A stretch of DNA of 60,586 nt from Stylophora pistillata (lineage: Eukaryota): the NCBI RefSeq assembly GCF_002571385.2, contig NW_019217960.1, positions 381,199 to 441,784 of the forward strand. Direction: 5' to 3'. Shown here one piece after another: positions 27,001 through 51,300 of this stretch (its first letter is position 1; each line of letters opens with the position of its first letter). A program made the position numbers.

Positions 27001-30000
27001 TATTAAGTCTTTATTAAGAAAAAATTTTTCCAATCGTTATTTAGTTTCACTCCATTCGCTAAAACAATTTTGAATTCTAAAAGTTACTGAAAGTATTTTG
27101 TGCTTTTTGATAGCATACACATGTACGTGTTGCAGACAAGAAAAGTACACAATGATATTTATATTTGTTTACTTCTTCAAAAGTTACAAGCGATTTTATA
27201 TTTGCAACCAAGGTCAAAATTGAGGGAAAATTCCCTCTTTCCCACCTCTAAATGTTGGTGACGCGTAAATTGGACTCCACCAAAACAGTCCAAAATTGAT
27301 CAGTTAACACATACTTTTCCTTGCAACATGGTACGGCTCGTACTGAATCCAGCGAACAGTTAATGGAAATAGATAGTTACCAACTCAGAAAGTGTTGATC
27401 AAAGAATTTACTTGAAAGTATATTACAGCTTTAATCATAGTAGGGCCGGAGTGAAACGGATTGAAAACAAAAATTGTAGAGTTGACTGTTCGTACTTGTT
27501 GTCTTGTTTTGGAGGCTAAGTTATTTAAATCAATGGTGTTTTATTTGATCTGTGGTAGATTCTAAGTTATTTAGACAGCATTCGCTTATCTATATTTCCA
27601 TGTGACTGTGACACTTTTCTATCGAATTCCTATCAAAAGATGCAACGAGAAATGTAAGTCAGAACCAGGTTTTTAGAGGGCGATTTGCATTACTCCAAGT
27701 TTAGCTGTTGAGATATAAGCATATGGCTTTTCTATACAGTTAAACATAGGGTTACTGTAAGCCGGAGTTTCGAGCAACTCAAGCCGGGTATATCACTGAC
27801 AGATGTAATTATACGATAGAAGAAATCGACGGAGAAGAAGTAACAACTGATTTCTTGAAGGAGTTTGAAATGTTTATTTTTGATAGCCATTAGTATTACG
27901 TAGTATATTTTGTAAAATGCAGGCATTTGACGTTTTTCAGCACCACGAGAATTGTCAATAAACAACGTTAAGGTTAACCAAAAAGAGTCATTGTTTCTTA
28001 GCTTTTGGCAAGAGGATCAAAATTTCGGTTTTTCATCGCATTGCATTCATACCATGCGTACTATTGTAGAGTACGTTATGCAACTGATATAATTTTGGGA
28101 AATTTCAGCGCACCAAGTGGTTCCCAATCCTTAGAGATACTGAGGAGACAATTTACTTGACCCTCCTCGCCCCCCCCTCCCCTCTTTCCCTTTTTTGTTA
28201 ATGTTCTTTTTGTTTTTACTTTAGTCTCGCCGAAAACAATAATCACATTAAGAAAAAGAAGTAAGTGAAAGATGAGTGAAATGAAGAGAGAATTTTTCTT
28301 TTTTTTCTTTTTATTGATTCGATTTTTGTTTTCGTTTGAAGTAAGCTAGTTCCGGTGAGGGAAGTTTTACCATTTTCAAACCTTGAATTTGTTGGAAATC
28401 CCTGATTGAGGAATACCTCTCGATACAACTACTGAGTGAAAAAATCAAATTTGAAATTAACATTCTCTTTCAATAGAATGATTGTCAGATTCGAGTGAAT
28501 AAAAAAGAAGAATATCTACAAATCCACAGAAAAATCAATCAAGTCAAGATTTAATTTATCCTTTAGATTTTATGACTAAATACACGCAGTTAATTCTACT
28601 ATTGGATTTTAATAGGTTTTTTTATGTTATTTATGGCTTCGTTGCTCCACTGGAATAAACAAACCTCGAGGTTCTTCTTTAGCAACCGTCTCATAAAACC
28701 CAGCTGGAAAACTAGTTATTCCTGGTTACAAATTCTACCAGTAAATATGTTTGGAGCTCTGACGATGTGTAAGTACCAGAGTGACGTTCCAAGAGGTACT
28801 TCGCAAGAACCAACTTTTTACACATTCACCTTTGTTACTCATGAAATCAGCTTCAACCACAAAAGGACTACTTGATAGAATGTGCGGAACTAAGGGAAAC
28901 TACATCTGTCTGATGGTCTGCTTGTTTGATTGTTTGAAATTATGCTAACGTAACAATACTACTCTTGAAAGAACTAGTAACAGATTTCTTCAAAAAAAAA
29001 AAGAAAAACTCAACTTTCTAAAAATGATACAAGAGAAGTCTAAAGAGTTGGACGTAATATTGTTATTATTTGTCATATCTCTCCAATCTCCATGCCATGC
29101 CTTTATGTGGTTCTGGTGGTCTCAAACCCAAAGGCCGCGCGTAGGATATGCGGTGTTCTCATTTTTCTGCAAAGCAGTAAAAGTTCTATCAATTAAGATG
29201 GTGCAGTCACACGAGCAAAAGAAAAATGGTATTCATAACTGCACAACTTACAGCAGAGAATTTAATTAGCAAAATAAAAAATACGGCTCTTATTATAGAG
29301 TAGGTATACTTGCGAGGGCGTTTGTGTATTAAAATTTTTATTTTATTTTACGAGGCTCAACAAGAGCAATATTATTATGGTCATACTGAATGTGCGCTAC
29401 TGGAAGACTTGAAGCTTTGTTCTCAGGGGTGGTTGGAACTTTCTAATAATTTCTGAACTGCGTTGTCACTTTCAAATGAAACTTTCTCACGTTTTAACTT
29501 GGTTAAACGCGAAATGATGACAATGGTTCCGTTCTTTTTACTAAGGAGCATCCTCTCAGTTAGTTTAAAATCAGGCTGCGGATCTTGCGCCAGTTATTGA
29601 ACCGACCCAGTGCAGCAGGGAAGGTAGTTTCTAAACGATCATCCTTAATTGCTAATGTGTCAGACAACATGAATGTAAAACGAACAACTTGCCACGGCAA
29701 TCATAGAGAGACTTGGAGGCTTCTTTTCCAAAAGTGTGTGTTCCTCTGGGACACGAAATACAAGAGAATTTGGCTCTTTTATTTTGGTAATGCTTCACGG
29801 CACATTTTTGGCATAGTGCTTTGCTGGTATCGTAAAAATAGCCAGCTTTACAATCAACTAAATAGTTTATAAATGAGGAAAAGTAGAAATGGCTGATCAG
29901 AATTTTTCAAACATACCTGGTATCATGAATAGCTTTTTTATTTAGTTCAAGGGCATAGACTATTTTTCATATTTTCGTAAGCCTTCCTATGTATCATGCA

Positions 30001-48300: not shown

Positions 48301-51300
48301 GAACGCTAAATTGACCAATCAGAGCGCGAGCTTTACTTTGGTTATGTTATAATTGAATATGGAAGAACGTATTTTGCAATATAAGGAATTTAAATGTGTA
48401 GTAATGAATGAAGGACGGGTATGCGCCATTAAATACTGGTCGATGAACAGAGCTTCTAAATAATTGCTTTGCCTTGGCCCGTATCTAATGATGAGATAAA
48501 AATCCCACTGGCTATTTGAATTGATATAATATCTGTGAAGTCAGACCGGAAAGCCAAAACGACAATTTAACTGATATCTTGCCTTGTTGTAAAACAATGA
48601 TACAGGAGAAAATATGGGCCCTTGTAGAACCTTGAGATAAAGGCAACTGATCAGTTATTTTCGCATTCGGCATTAACACCATCTTGGTGCGAAGATAATT
48701 CGAATTCGAATTCGCTTTCCGTACTTACGGCTAATGGATAAAGTTTTTTCTTCGACAAGAACCATGTTTCTTCGAACATTGTCAAAGAGGATACTGTCGG
48801 CAAGATGTGGGAGGCTCGGGTAATAATATTTTTTACAAACGGACGAGTCTTGATCGCTATAGTTTTTTGTCATATCACCCTCTGTCATTTCCAAACAGAT
48901 TTATAACTGTTAATTTGCTTGTAAGAGGAGCAGCTTGACGAGTTTATCTAGACAGATTGACGTTAAACAATATGCGCACAGATTTATTGCCCTAACAGGG
49001 AGGCAAGGTGAGAGAAATTTAAAAGCTCACCCTCGCGGTATGTCGAGAACTATGGCTGCAGGCCCATCAATTCCACTTTCTATCAGTACTTTTCTTTTTT
49101 TTCCATCCATACTACCCACTTCGATTCTTTTAGTTCCCACGTCTGTCCAAAAGATATTTCTTCCAGGCTTGTCGATGACCAAACCAAGTGGTTTTACTAC
49201 ATTGCAACTGAATAAAACTTTTAAGGAAGTTGCATTTGAGAAGACACTGAGGATCATACCCTGCCGAATATCCGAATAATACACTCTGTCCTCTTCGGGT
49301 AAATAATCCAAAGAAGCCGGCGTCACTATTCCAAAGTGATATATTTTGGCTTTGGCTGTAAACGTGCCTATGCTCAAGTCAATTGCCTTTGTGGTTTTGT
49401 TTTGACTGTCATTAAACAGCAAAATCGTATTGGGCCCTCAGATAAAGACAACGAAACTAATTACTTGGGTATCATTGCTTAAGTTATCAGCCGTCATCAC
49501 AGAGTTGAACATGTAGTTGCTCTGCGAATTAAAGGTAAATATTTTATAAATGATTACTCTCCTCGACCTCTTCTCTTACCATGATGTCAACTACGTCTTC
49601 CATTATTGCAGTGATTTTACGCGAATGTTTGGTAAACTGCTGGGTAACATATTATTCTTGAACAGCACGATTGACAATTCAGTCATTTACAGTTTGTTAT
49701 GTCATCATTGAAAAATTTTCGATACTGGTAAATTTTCTTTTTTTGCCATCTACCAATATTGAAATTTTATAAATTATATTATGCAAAGTTAAGAATTGAT
49801 AGCGGGGCTCCTATGCGCGCTTTGCGCGCGTGGGGTAGAGCCCCATACCCATGGAATATGGTCAACTTCTTTTCGTTTGGTTGTCACGTGACTGACCGAG
49901 CGTACTTACATAGGTACGTGCCAAAGGGATGGGTGACTCACGCGAGTCTTCGCAAATGCACATCTATTATGTTATAATTAATATTACGAACTTGGGAGCT
50001 CCGCATTTAGGCTTGGCTAAATCTATATATTATGTCGTTGAAAGGCCTTACTTTCTTGTCAGTCAGAGCTAAAGTGACACACACCTTTCAATGACCTTAC
50101 GGCGTGATTGCTCCTCAAAATCAACAGAAGCAAGTAACATATAACTGCTTGCCTCATAATTCTCCTTTCCACCTGTTAGATTAAAGGAGCAAAGAGACAT
50201 GTTATGAATCGCTGTTTAAAATGATCAATTTTGAAGTTAAAGTAAACCTACAGTGGTAGAGCTCTTTCCAAGCTGGTTACTAGCAAATAATTATACCGCT
50301 GTTGAATGAAAAAAGATTCAAATTTTTTTTTTTGTGAAGGTAAGTATACCAAGACATTATTTTCTATTAGTGATTGTGTGTTCGCAAGCGGTCATCTTTA
50401 CGAAAAATAATCTGCCAGAAGAAACCATGAAATAACAGTAAGGCAGTAAAACCAAAATTTACCTAATAATACTTTAAATTTAAATTTTCGATCAAGGGGC
50501 TGTCGTATCTTATTCTGTAAAGCCATCGATATCTCATGTATAATAAGCAACGGAAGTTCGAAACAAAGCTGAAAAAAGCACAAATACTTCGTTTGGCAGG
50601 CTTTGAATTCCAATACATTTCATAAGGCATTTCTGATCCTAGACTGATTGATGCGATGGGGAATAATATATGTATTATATGGTTTCAAAAGCTTGATGCT
50701 CATTTTCGTGTAGATGACAATTCATCGTGCGAAAGATATCCCCCTGATTCGTCAACTCGCACCACCTACACATGGAGGAATTGCTAAAATAATTAACTCT
50801 GGTCACGCTTCCAAACGAGTCCGTCTCTGTAATTTTAATGAATCTTCGAACGAAAAGGCGAGAGATGAACAGATTGAAAAGCTGCATGATGAAACTATTT
50901 TAAGTCAATTACTTCGCAATGGAAGGAGCATTGCATGAAGCTCGAGAGATGGAAGTATCACTTGAGCGGATGGCCTTGATGGTCATTCCCCTTCAAGAAC
51001 CTTGCGAAGGTACTAAAGATGTTGGGCCGACTACTGGGAATGGATCTACTGGAAAATCCGGAAAAAACATGTTTCAACAAATTTTGACACCTCTTACAAG
51101 CTCTTACAAGCTATAATTGTCCATCCTATGGTTAAAAGTGTGACAAGTGGGGCTCGCTAGGGGAGAAAAAGACCCAAACCTAAAAAAAAAAAAAAAAAAA
51201 AGAACAAAAAATGGTTGCCACTTGACGGCGACAAGGCAAAAAGAAAAGTCACGTTAAGAGAAGGCTGGCCAATTTGTTGAGGATGACGCATTTGGCTCTA

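What the first reader, a model, noticed from the sequence alone, without database searches (positions are those of the whole stretch)
29443..50157. Apparently secreted hybrid of LRP5/6-like propellers and an SVEP1-like CCP/HYR stalk
Seen: signal peptide, two YWTD-propeller/EGF units, then CCP2-HYR-CCP3-HYR-CCP2-HYR2-CCP, a furin module and ephrin-receptor-like repeats. I found no LDLa repeats, transmembrane helix, or NPxY/PPPSP tail before the neighbouring gene. Established: propeller-EGF pairs bind Wnt/Dkk/sclerostin in LRP5/6 and laminin in nidogen; CCP+HYR+ephrin-like repeats typify SVEP1/SRPX-like matrix proteins. I do not recognise this combination as a named family. Inference: a soluble, matrix-tethered ligand trap or decoy, or a nidogen-like linker.
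[Added by the scan's program, not by the reader: the finding's places include an assembly gap (unread letters, written N; its length is only estimated) at 47753 to 47773. Whether the letters on both sides are continuous or in frame is not known: test that first.]
Basis: partly seen in the sequence, partly recalled or inferred. Interest (0 to 1): 0.75.

Follow-up and report, generated by a model that had tools for sequence, protein, structure and literature searches.

The report
Coral polydom-like protein with LRP-type propellers
This is a real, already catalogued but unstudied coral gene for a secreted matrix-type protein that joins two LRP-type beta-propellers to the core of the SVEP1/polydom family, a combination that sea anemones share.

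Summary
On the minus strand, 25 coding exons (50157 to 29159) match a public Stylophora pistillata protein exactly (XP_022792617.1, 1903 aa). NCBI calls it "SVEP1-like"; GenBank calls it "LRP5". Next comes a 161-aa module without a Pfam match that carries RKRR, then two ephrin-receptor-like repeats.

The N gap lies in intron 2 and touches no coding sequence. I found no LDLa repeat, TM helix or PPPSP motif.

The Pfam-less module is the furin-cleaved, SEA-like module of SVEP1/polydom, and the C-terminal ~630 aa are collinear with echinoderm SVEP1. The protein therefore belongs with the cnidarian "polydom-like" proteins described in 2025, with YWTD/EGF heads not reported there.

The full architecture recurs in Pocillopora (83% identity, no gaps) and in the sea anemone Actinostola. 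Propeller 2 leans towards LRP5/6 propeller 2 (111 of 200 bootstraps); propeller 1 is unresolved.

The function (matrix-bound ligand binder) is inferred. I rate it a new variant of a known kind, of moderate interest.

The parts
50085..50157 (-). Exon 1: start codon and signal-like peptide (MRQAVICYLLLLILRSNHA...), ends in phase 1
   Evidence: A 160-aa contig-derived protein (P0008) reads exon 1 spliced to exon 2 at 100% identity. Conserved in Pocillopora P0185. No signal-peptide predictor was run.
49031..49436 (-). Exon 2: first half of YWTD propeller 1
   Evidence: Ldl_recept_b E 1.3e-15; junctions
47753..47773 (.). Assembly gap, inside intron 2 (49030-47405); not coding, not filled
47016..47404 (-). 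Exon 3: second half of propeller 1
   Evidence: Ldl_recept_b E 8.5e-24; PDB relatives LRP2/4/6 and nidogen
46310..46435 (-). Exon 4: EGF module after propeller 1
   Evidence: FXa_inhibition E 1.8e-12
45312..45738 (-). Exon 5: first half of propeller 2 (the part closest to LRP5/6 propeller 2)
   Evidence: Ldl_recept_b E 3.7e-25; 56-59% identity to propeller 2 of LRP5/6/arrow
44185..44585 (-). Exon 6: second half of propeller 2
   Evidence: Ldl_recept_b E 4.8e-12
43947..44075 (-). Exon 7: EGF module after propeller 2
   Evidence: FXa_inhibition E 4.5e-9
43409..43594 (-). Exon 8: CCP 1
   Evidence: Sushi E 1.9e-6
42852..43034 (-). Exon 9: CCP 2 (weak)
   Evidence: Sushi E 1.7e-3, 19.2 bits, just under the 20.7 cut-off
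42475..42729 (-). Exon 10: HYR 1
   Evidence: HYR E 1.6e-10
41873..42067 (-). Exon 11: CCP 3
   Evidence: Sushi E 4e-5
38307..38492 (-). Exon 12: CCP 4
   Evidence: Sushi E 1.6e-9
37423..37611 (-). Exon 13: CCP 5
   Evidence: Sushi E 7.6e-7
36833..37081 (-). Exon 14: HYR 2
   Evidence: HYR E 3.1e-14
36314..36493 (-). Exon 15: CCP 6
   Evidence: Sushi E 1.5e-10
35659..35862 (-). Exon 16: CCP 7
   Evidence: Sushi E 5.2e-7
34935..35174 (-). Exon 17: HYR 3
   Evidence: HYR E 7.1e-16
33845..34081 (-). Exon 18: HYR 4
   Evidence: HYR E 1e-11
33437..33643 (-). Exon 19: divergent CCP 8
   Evidence: Sushi E 0.031, 15.1 bits; the equivalent piece of relative P0039 scores Sushi E 4.1e-5
32677..33162 (-). 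Exon 20: 161-aa SEA-like module with an RKRR furin-type site in its central loop (no Pfam model)
   Evidence: no family; family, conserved motif and cysteines; AF2 pLDDT 84.4; same place in echinoderm SVEP1; SEA label and furin site in human SVEP1
32332..32496 (-). Exon 21: ephrin-receptor-like repeat 1
   Evidence: Ephrin_rec_like E 1.1e-10
31632..31796 (-). Exon 22: ephrin-receptor-like repeat 2
   Evidence: Ephrin_rec_like E 4.3e-12
30841..31029 (-). Exon 23: CCP-like module, duplicate of exon 19
   Evidence: No Pfam hit; BLASTP to exon 19: 38% identity, E 1e-12
30270..30506 (-). Exon 24: copy of only the N-terminal (pre-furin) half of the SEA-like module
   Evidence: BLASTP to exon 20: 28% identity over 74 aa, E 4e-7
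29693..29857 (-). Intact ephrin-receptor-like exon 3 (165 nt, phase 1-1, GC donor). Skipped in all Stylophora models seen; included in Pocillopora P0185/P0002.
   Evidence: Ephrin_rec_like E 7.2e-10; sequence read; C-termini
29159..29166 (-). Exon 25: last two codons (E, K) and stop
   Evidence: The only AG|AAAAR-stop site between 26000 and 30271; junction fits in phase 1. The mRNA itself was not seen.

Best explanation
The locus encodes a secreted, heavily disulfide-bonded and glycosylated extracellular-matrix protein of the cnidarian polydom-like (SVEP1-related) family. Its N-terminus carries two LRP4/5/6-type YWTD-propeller/EGF units.

Likely working:
1. The signal peptide takes it into the secretory pathway.
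2. A furin-type convertase cuts at RKRR, in the loop between strands 2 and 3 of the SEA-like module. Mammalian polydom is likewise cut into N- and C-terminal fragments.
3. The two halves probably stay together through the shared sheet.
4. The CCP/HYR/ephrin-like core places the protein in the mesoglea or basement membrane, and the two propellers act as binding heads for a protein ligand.

Shown here: the gene model, the domain order, the lack of a TM helix, LDLa repeats or a tail in every model seen, homology of the core to SVEP1, conservation of the dibasic site, and conservation of the whole architecture in Pocillopora and Actinostola.

Inferred: the cleavage itself, continued association of the halves, matrix location, and the kind of ligand.
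For: - Exact 25-exon match to public P0001; 24 of 24 junctions GT-AG; 22 of 24 in phase 1, including all 22 that bound modules.
- Pfam, exon by exon.
- No hydrophobic stretch outside the signal region in P0001, P0003, P0004, P0185, P0186, P0174, P0002 or P0007.
- The RKRR module has 42 relatives at E<=1e-3 among 1.84 billion representatives.
- R-x-[KR]-R is present in 23 of 34 aligned members and a weaker dibasic site in 9 more. The six cysteines are kept in 27 to 34 of 34 sequences, or in all that cover the column.
- AF2 model: pLDDT 84.4, pTM 0.78, a beta-alpha-beta / beta-alpha-beta-beta-beta fold, with the RKRR loop at low confidence.
- The same module sits between HYR/Sushi and the Ephrin_rec_like repeats in sea-urchin SVEP1 (P0038, which has VWA and Pentaxin) and in P0048. 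Both are collinear with P0001 residues 1127-1759 at 27.5-30.8% identity.
- Human SVEP1 is drawn with a SEA module and a furin site just before residue 997 (PMC13722417, passages).
- Mouse polydom is secreted as 115-kD N-terminal and 270-kD C-terminal fragments (PMC10281526, passage citing Sato-Nishiuchi 2012).
- Nematostella polydom-like proteins belong to the mesoglea matrisome (PMC12549020, passages).
- Orthologues: P0185, 83.3% identity over 1900 aa with 0 gaps; P0174 (Actinostola), one HSP covering residues 116-1649. Both carry Ldl_recept_b, FXa_inhibition, Sushi and HYR.
Against: - I saw no expression, proteomic or localisation data for this gene, and no paper cites its accessions.
- Pfam SEA does not match the module. 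No PDB sequence relative was found.
- Foldseek gave 0 matches at E<=0.001. The best was E 1.2e-3 with TM 0.36, and the hits are generic ferredoxin-like folds.
- No contig-derived protein seen here spans the EGF2-to-CCP1 junction. The fusion rests on gene predictions in three species plus exon phase and a 352-nt intron.
- Ligand specificity of the propellers is untested.
- Two hydrophobic 21-mers lie in non-model ORFs downstream of the last domain exon, so a rare membrane-anchored isoform is not strictly excluded.
Confidence: 0.6

Rival explanations
1. Soluble or matrix-held Wnt-pathway decoy. The propeller pair keeps the LRP5/6 propeller-1/2 binding function for Wnt, Dkk or sclerostin-type ligands and sequesters them outside the cell.
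For: The first half of propeller 2 is 56-59% identical to propeller 2 of 6 of 6 LRP5/6/arrow proteins tested, against 41-57% for LRP4 propellers. Coral propeller 2 forms an exclusive clade with LRP5/6 propeller 2 in 111 of 200 NJ bootstraps. There is no TM helix or signalling tail.
Against: Propeller 1 is unplaced; its commonest bootstrap position is outside all groups (81 of 200). It is 31-47% identical to LRP4 and LRP5/6 alike. The tree had no LRP1/2, LDLR, nidogen or named cnidarian LRP sequences. Ligand-contact residues were not compared. The two propellers of Actinostola are nearly identical to each other, which does not fit a conserved P1/P2 division of labour.
Confidence: 0.12
2. Nidogen-like basement-membrane linker. 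The propellers bind laminin-type modules while the CCP/HYR/ephrin-like core binds other matrix or cell-surface partners.
For: Nidogen's propeller is among the PDB relatives of both exons tested (1npe: 118 and 113 bits). Nematostella polydoms are grouped with basement-membrane factors in the matrisome study. The protein is secreted and modular.
Against: LRP4 single-propeller constructs score higher than nidogen for both exons tested (124 vs 118 bits; 146 vs 113). LRP6 propeller 1 is higher for exon 5 (129) but lower for exon 3 (110). No NIDO, G2F or thyroglobulin domain was found in any exon.
Confidence: 0.12
3. Annotation artefact: two neighbouring genes (an LRP fragment and a polydom-like gene) wrongly fused by gene predictors.
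For: None of the contig-derived proteins seen (P0005-P0008) spans residues about 608-712. GenBank and NCBI give the protein two different family names.
Against: Only 352 nt separate exon 7 from exon 8, and both ends are in phase 1 with GT-AG. The same collinear fusion appears in independent annotations of Pocillopora (0 gaps over 1900 aa) and Actinostola (one HSP over residues 116-1649). There is no signal peptide or start exon before CCP 1 and no stop after EGF 2.
Confidence: 0.04
4. Membrane receptor whose TM and cytoplasmic exon was missed.
For: Hydrophobic 21-mers occur in unannotated ORFs near 29302 and 28297. The third ephrin-like exon shows that the 3' end is alternatively spliced.
Against: The three public Stylophora isoforms, the three contig-derived fragments that reach the C-terminus (P0005-P0007) and Pocillopora P0185 all end in the same ...EK stop; P0186 ends differently. 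None of these has a TM helix. T-rich intron sequence gives hydrophobic ORFs by chance. A convergent thrombospondin gene follows.
Confidence: 0.04
5. Innate-immune recognition or complement-regulator-like molecule, as proposed for Hydractinia polydom.
For: CCP arrays are typical of complement regulators. The matrisome paper cites Hydractinia polydom as i-cell specific and possibly immune (passage citing Schwarz 2008).
Against: No lectin, pentraxin or other recognition domain is present here.
Confidence: 0.08

Closest known systems
Cnidarian polydom-like proteins (Nematostella matrisome, PMC12549020)
   Same: An EGF-Sushi-HYR-ephrin-like (TKE) core. They lack VWA, pentraxin and the long terminal Sushi array, and carry extra domains at one end. 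Found in Anthozoa.
   Different: The extra domains reported there are TSR or Ig-like. The words LDL, LRP and propeller occur 0 times in the main text. Here the extra domains are two YWTD-propeller/EGF units, the stalk has three CCP/HYR rounds, and the tail cassette is duplicated. The supplements could not be opened.
Vertebrate and echinoderm SVEP1/polydom
   Same: A collinear CCP-CCP-HYR-HYR-CCP / SEA-like furin module / ephrin-like cassette. The furin site is at the same place in the module.
   Different: No VWA, no EGF run, no pentraxin and no C-terminal CCP array, so no CCP20 Tie1 site and no integrin-binding region. Has YWTD propellers, which canonical SVEP1 lacks.
LRP5/6 (arrow)
   Same: YWTD six-blade propellers, each followed by an EGF. 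The first half of propeller 2 is 56-59% identical to LRP5/6 propeller 2.
   Different: Two propellers rather than four. No LDLa repeats, TM helix or PPPSP motifs.
LRP4
   Same: Propeller exons 3 and 6 are at least as close to LRP4 propellers (up to 47% identity).
   Different: No LDLa cluster, no calcium-binding EGF pair, two rather than four propellers, no TM helix.
Nidogen
   Same: A secreted matrix protein that uses a YWTD propeller as a binding head (1npe among the hits).
   Different: No NIDO, G2F or thyroglobulin domains. Two propellers at the N-terminus rather than one at the C-terminus.
Furin-cut SEA-like modules of Notch and GPR126/ADGRG6
   Same: An alpha/beta sandwich with a convertase site in a loop between central strands (AF2 model). 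The zebrafish Gpr126 ectodomain 6v55 is among the Foldseek hits (rank 48, probability 0.96, TM 0.37). That these proteins carry furin-cut SEA-like modules is recalled, not from a call.
   Different: No sequence relation was detected. Here the module is in a soluble protein, not next to a membrane.

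Membership tests
Canonical SVEP1/polydom | N-terminal VWA domain | tested here: not met
   No VWA hit in any of the 28 exon or ORF queries. Sea-urchin SVEP1 P0038 has it.
Canonical SVEP1/polydom | Pentraxin domain and EGF run after the ephrin-like repeats | tested here: not met
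   No Pentaxin hit. The only EGFs are the two that follow the propellers.
Canonical SVEP1/polydom | Long C-terminal CCP array | tested here: not met
   The protein ends after the CCP-like module, half SEA-like module and (optional) ephrin-like exon.
Canonical SVEP1/polydom | CCP-HYR-HYR-CCP / furin-cut SEA-like module / ephrin-like cassette | tested here: met
   Collinear HSPs to P0038 and P0048 over P0001 residues 1127-1759.
Cnidarian polydom-like (Bergheim et al. 2025) | EGF-Sushi-HYR-TKE core without VWA, pentraxin or terminal Sushi array; extra end domains allowed | tested here: met
   Searches give the domain order. The definition is taken from passages of PMC12549020.
Cnidarian polydom-like (Bergheim et al. 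2025) | Presence in mesoglea; up-regulated at the larva-to-polyp transition | not testable with these tools
   No expression or proteome data for this gene were reachable; supplements are closed.
LRP5/6 | Four YWTD-EGF units | tested here: not met
   Two units only.
LRP5/6 | Three LDLa repeats, TM helix, PPPSP motifs in the tail | tested here: not met
   No PF00057 hit (also absent from the precomputed list for P0001). No LDLa-core or PPPSP pattern in 26500-57200. No TM helix.
LRP5/6 | Propellers orthologous to LRP5/6 propellers | tested here: inconclusive
   Propeller 2 groups with LRP5/6 propeller 2 in 111 of 200 bootstraps; propeller 1 is unplaced. The outgroup set was incomplete.
Nidogen | NIDO, G2F and thyroglobulin domains with one C-terminal propeller | tested here: not met
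   None of these families was hit.
SEA domain (Pfam PF01390) | Sequence match to the SEA profile | tested here: not met
   0 families for the module at E<=1.
SEA domain (Pfam PF01390) | Alpha/beta sandwich with the cleavage site between central strands | tested here: inconclusive
   AF2 topology fits: strands 6-17 and 55-66, loop with RKRR, strand 83-95, helices 23-39 and 101-121. Foldseek gave 0 hits at E<=0.001. The Atlas gave a SEA cluster only at score 0.81. The SEA label for the SVEP1 module comes from a figure legend of PMC13722417.

The most novel reading that the evidence does not exclude
Hexacorals keep a dedicated matrix-tethered extracellular modulator. LRP5/6-derived propellers capture Wnt-pathway ligands (Wnt, Dkk-type) and present or sequester them on a furin-processed polydom scaffold. 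This would be a way of shaping morphogen fields in the mesoglea that bilaterians do not have.
Probability: 0.1. Interest if true: 0.7.

Novelty: new variant of a known kind. Interest (0 to 1): 0.38.

Why it matters
Polydom/SVEP1 proteins are matrix organisers. In vertebrates they act in lymphatic development through Tie1 and integrin binding, and they are unusually diversified in sea anemones. YWTD propellers are the ligand-binding heads of the LRP4/5/6 receptors and of nidogen.

A conserved secreted protein that puts two such heads on a polydom core, shared by stony corals and at least one sea anemone, suggests an old matrix-bound binding function. It also offers a concrete candidate for how cnidarian matrix might hold signalling or basement-membrane ligands.

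Two smaller points follow. The furin-cut SEA-like module of SVEP1 has no Pfam model, yet it is a recognisable and rare family (42 hits in 1.84 billion representatives). And automatic names for one protein ("LRP5" against "SVEP1-like") can each describe only half of it.

Tried and rejected
- (propeller exon against longer proteins): the ranking was dominated by four-propeller LRP4/5/6 proteins. 0 of the 120 listed rows carried HYR, so the search said nothing about orthologues.
- (profile of the RKRR module against longer proteins): only 2 hits among 5867 candidates (P0001, P0002). This used the last protein search for no gain.
- no PDB sequence relative of the module (one chance-level hit at E 0.89; 0 hits for the profile).
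- Foldseek gave only generic ferredoxin-like matches.
- the Atlas gave leads only (SEA cluster at 0.81; plain Ldl_recept_b clusters).
- 0 papers hold any of six accessions of this protein.
- nothing specific to this gene or to a YWTD+HYR combination. The red-coral skeletome paper lists only an LRP4-like YWTD protein.
- Sato-Nishiuchi 2012 is not held, so I used the 2023 paper's statement about it.
- a script slip printed nothing; one search is the corrected run.
- Rejected: the ORF 29426-29593 as last exon (no family, in no model).
- Rejected: a hidden exon in the gap (0 gaps against Pocillopora).
- Rejected: human origin. The window matches a Stylophora pistillata protein at 100%.
- Not used: the genome-contig scan, because that collection holds only bacteria and archaea.
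- Closed, and so unchecked: metagenome contigs, viral contigs and paper supplements.

Full report
ORGANISM AND STRAND. The window is coral sequence, not human. A search with one exon returned a 1903-aa protein, P0001 (XP_022792617.1 / PFX24406.1, Stylophora pistillata). This protein maps back to the minus strand of the window at 100% identity in 25 blocks. [quoted passage not shown] The GenBank/UniRef name is "Low-density lipoprotein receptor-related protein 5".

THE GAP, TESTED FIRST. The N runs in the window are 9198-9770, 17692, 44663 and 47753-47773. The 47753-47773 gap lies in intron 2, between exon 2 (49436-49031) and exon 3 (47404-47016). That junction has a single GT-AG solution with a phase-2 split codon that gives the residue found in P0001. 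The Pocillopora verrucosa orthologue P0185 aligns to P0001 over 1900 residues with 0 gaps, so no exon is hidden in the gap and no reading frame crosses it. The single N at 44663 lies in intron 5.

A coordinates-only comparison of the flanks shows three things:
- The gap sits inside a stretch bounded by a perfect 39-nt inverted repeat (47585-47623 and 48120-48158).
- The right flank (47774-48118) is 98.3% identical to 50857-51201.
- The left flank (47606-47752) is self-palindromic and has no match in that upstream copy.

GENE MODEL. I searched the model exon by exon and left out the step of joining the exons into one query. Whole-length comparisons used the public protein P0001 as one search returned it, and only in local scripts. 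The 25 coding exons run from 50157 (ATG) to 29159 (stop); their coordinates are in the parts list. All 24 junctions have one solution each, and all are GT-AG. 22 are in phase 1. The other two, in phase 2, are the equivalent mid-propeller junctions of propellers 1 and 2. Every module is therefore a symmetric phase 1-1 exon or exon group, the layout expected of exon shuffling. The last exon (two codons and the stop) is the only site between 26000 and 30271 that fits the acceptor and the "EK stop" ending of the public proteins. I did not see the mRNA. The ORF 29426-29593 that it probably rests on has no family match and is in no model.

DOMAINS (Pfam on each exon ORF).
- Ldl_recept_b in 4 of 4 propeller ORFs.
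- FXa_inhibition/EGF in 2 of 2 EGF ORFs.
- Sushi in seven ORFs, one of them at 19.2 bits against a cut-off of 20.7. An eighth is weak (15.1 bits).
- HYR in four ORFs.
- Ephrin_rec_like in three ORFs.

The order is signal, (propeller-EGF) x2, CCP2-HYR-CCP3-HYR-CCP2-HYR2-CCP, a 161-aa module with no Pfam match that carries RKRR, and two ephrin-like repeats. After these come a CCP-like exon that is homologous to exon 19 (38% identity, E 1e-12) and a copy of only the first half of the RKRR module (E 4e-7). So the CCP / module / ephrin-like cassette is duplicated, and the second copy is truncated.

A third ephrin-like exon (29857-29693; 165 nt like the other two; phase 1-1; GC donor) is intact. It is nevertheless absent from all three public Stylophora isoforms and from three contig-derived proteins that end "...TQKTEK". 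Pocillopora P0185 and P0002 include it.

THE RKRR MODULE. Among 1.84 billion representatives it has 42 relatives at E<=1e-3, 21 at 1e-10 and 3 at 1e-30. Most are exon-sized fragments. In an alignment of 34 sequences, the motif C..ENV.VECG is followed by R-x-[KR]-R in 23 of 34, and by a weaker dibasic site in 9 more. The six cysteines are kept in 27 to 34 of 34 sequences, or in all that cover the column.

AlphaFold2 on that alignment gives pLDDT 84.4 and pTM 0.78. The topology is beta-alpha-beta then beta-alpha-beta-beta-beta, and the RKRR loop has low confidence. This fits a SEA-like alpha/beta sandwich cut between its central strands. The independent support is weak, though:
- Pfam SEA does not match.
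- There is no PDB sequence relative.
- Foldseek finds 0 matches at E<=0.001. Its hits are generic ferredoxin-like folds plus the zebrafish Gpr126 ectodomain at rank 48.
- The Atlas offers a SEA cluster only at score 0.81.

Context is what identifies the module. Among the long hits, sea-urchin SVEP1 (P0038) reads VWA, Sushi x3, HYR x2, module at 787-931, Ephrin_rec_like x4, EGF x5, Pentaxin, and further domains. P0048 (named SVEP1-like) has the module in the same place. Both are collinear with P0001 residues 1127-1759. A 2026 eLife paper labels a SEA module in human SVEP1 and places a furin cleavage site just before residue 997 (PMC13722417, passages). A 2023 JCB paper states that polydom is cleaved into a 115-kD N-terminal and a 270-kD C-terminal fragment when secreted (PMC10281526, passage).

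RELATIVES AND DISTRIBUTION. P0185 and P0186 (Pocillopora, 1958 and 1957 aa) and P0174 (Actinostola sp., a sea anemone; partial, 1519 aa) all carry Ldl_recept_b, two FXa_inhibition EGFs, Sushi and HYR. All three align collinearly with P0001: 83% identity for the Pocillopora pair, and 35% over residues 116-1649 for Actinostola. The full architecture is therefore shared by stony corals and at least one sea anemone.

PROPELLERS. Both are genuine YWTD propellers. Their PDB relatives are LRP2, LRP4, LRP6, nidogen, LRP8 (ApoER2), VLDLR and LDLR. Taken exon by exon against ten LRP4/5/6 proteins:
- The first half of propeller 2 is 56-59% identical to propeller 2 of 6 of 6 LRP5/6/arrow proteins, and 41-57% identical to LRP4 propellers.
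- The other three exons are 31-47% identical to both groups.

I also built a rough neighbour-joining tree of 62 propellers from 17 proteins (226 columns, 200 bootstraps; no LRP1/2, LDLR, nidogen or named cnidarian LRP). It puts coral propeller 2 in an exclusive clade with LRP5/6 propeller 2 in 111 of 200 replicates and leaves propeller 1 unplaced. "LRP4/5/6-type" is safe. "LRP5/6-like" is a weak lean, and for one propeller only.

SECRETED OR NOT. Exon 1 encodes a short basic start, an 11-residue hydrophobic core and a small-residue end. A 160-aa contig-derived protein (P0008) reads exon 1 spliced to exon 2 at 100% identity. Pocillopora keeps the peptide. No predictor was run. Outside that region, none of the eight proteins scanned has a 19-residue stretch with mean hydropathy of 1.6 or more. 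Between 26500 and 57200, the three minus-strand frames hold no LDLa-core or PPPSP pattern, and the one NPxY lies in an intronic ORF. Two hydrophobic 21-mers occur in non-model ORFs near 29302 and 28297. In T-rich intron sequence this is expected by chance, but it is not excluded as an exon. The coding blocks hold 26 N-x-S/T sequons.

MOST LIKELY WORKING. The protein is a secreted, furin-processed matrix protein. An SVEP1/polydom core (CCP, HYR, SEA-like and ephrin-like modules) carries two propeller heads that bind a protein ligand. The gene, its architecture, its homologies and the absence of membrane features are shown. Cleavage, association of the halves, matrix location and ligand are inferred from the family. 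The rivals are a Wnt/Dkk decoy, a nidogen-like linker, an immune molecule, a fused-gene artefact and a missed TM exon. They are set out with their evidence in their own section.

COMPARISON WITH WHAT IS KNOWN. The closest described group is the Nematostella "polydom-like" set in the 2025 matrisome study. It comprises four short proteins with an EGF-Sushi-HYR-TKE core. They lack VWA, pentraxin and the terminal Sushi array, and carry extra TSR or Ig-like domains at one end (PMC12549020, passages). The present protein meets that definition. Its YWTD heads are not mentioned in that paper's main text (0 occurrences of LDL, LRP or propeller). The supplements, which may list the sequences, were closed. 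The protein fails three of four defining features of canonical SVEP1, all structural features of LRP5/6 and LRP4 other than the propeller type, and those of nidogen.

In the library searched, no paper cites any of six accessions of this protein. A six-term search for HYR/hyalin-repeat and YWTD/LDL-receptor-class-B/beta-propeller wording, requiring any three terms, found four papers. I read passages of one and only the listing of the other three; none of what I saw described this combination.

VERDICT. It is already present in public annotation under two half-right automatic names, and it is not characterised. I class it as a new variant of a known kind (polydom-like family with LRP-type propeller heads, conserved in hexacorals), of moderate interest.

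UNCHECKED. So were paper supplements, including coral skeletal and mesoglea proteome tables and the Nematostella polydom-like sequence list. Other gaps are cnidarians beyond the three genera above, vertebrate SVEP1 sequence itself (taken from papers only), and any expression data.

Noticed in passing
window 13259-21703, + strand: A thrombospondin-family gene lies convergent with the finding's gene: TSP_3 repeats (16146-16418, 16876-17256), TSP_C (21398-21703) and EGF_CA (13259-13570). Further cysteine-rich ORFs at 10.5-12.9 kb and an ORF at 26103-26363 may belong to it but gave no Pfam hit or were not tested.
   Followed up: partly
window 38538-39077 (+) and 59411-60586 (-): Two reverse-transcriptase ORFs (RVT_1, E 9.7e-18 and 9.4e-28). 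The first lies antisense inside the 3.4-kb intron 11 of the gene. The second runs off the window end. They were not analysed further.
   Followed up: no
window 47585-48158 and 50857-51201: The assembly gap sits in a stretch bounded by a perfect 39-nt inverted repeat. Its right part is 98.3% identical to a copy upstream of exon 1, and its left part is self-palindromic with no match in that copy. It looks like a small inverted-repeat-bounded mobile insertion in intron 2. Why the two copies part exactly at the gap is unexplained.
   Followed up: partly
window 50916-50936 (also 47833-47853) and 57053-57160, - strand: The predicted alternative first exons of the public isoforms map here. The extra 5' peptide of P0004 lies inside the repeat just described and so has two matching places. 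That of P0003 lies 7 kb upstream and replaces the signal exon. Both are computed isoforms, and I saw no transcript support for either.
   Followed up: partly
window 29693-29857, - strand: An intact third ephrin-receptor-like exon with a GC donor. It is skipped in every Stylophora model and contig-derived protein seen, but included in Pocillopora. It may be an alternative exon or one on its way out.
   Followed up: yes
window 30270-30506, - strand; also P0050 residues 1185-1244: Only the pre-furin half of the SEA-like module is present in the second cassette. An amphioxus metalloprotease-CUB-Kringle-GON protein likewise ends in just that half (E 6e-4). The half may therefore be usable as a module on its own.
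   Followed up: partly
P0174 (Actinostola) residues 2-180 and 241-487: The two propellers of the sea-anemone orthologue are nearly identical to each other (distance 0.18, against about 1.0 between the two coral propellers). This points to recent duplication, gene conversion or an assembly or annotation repeat in that species.
   Followed up: no
window about 29240-29302 and about 28235-28297, - strand: Hydrophobic 21-residue stretches in open frames that belong to no public model, downstream of the last domain exon. They are probably chance products of T-rich sequence.
   Followed up: no
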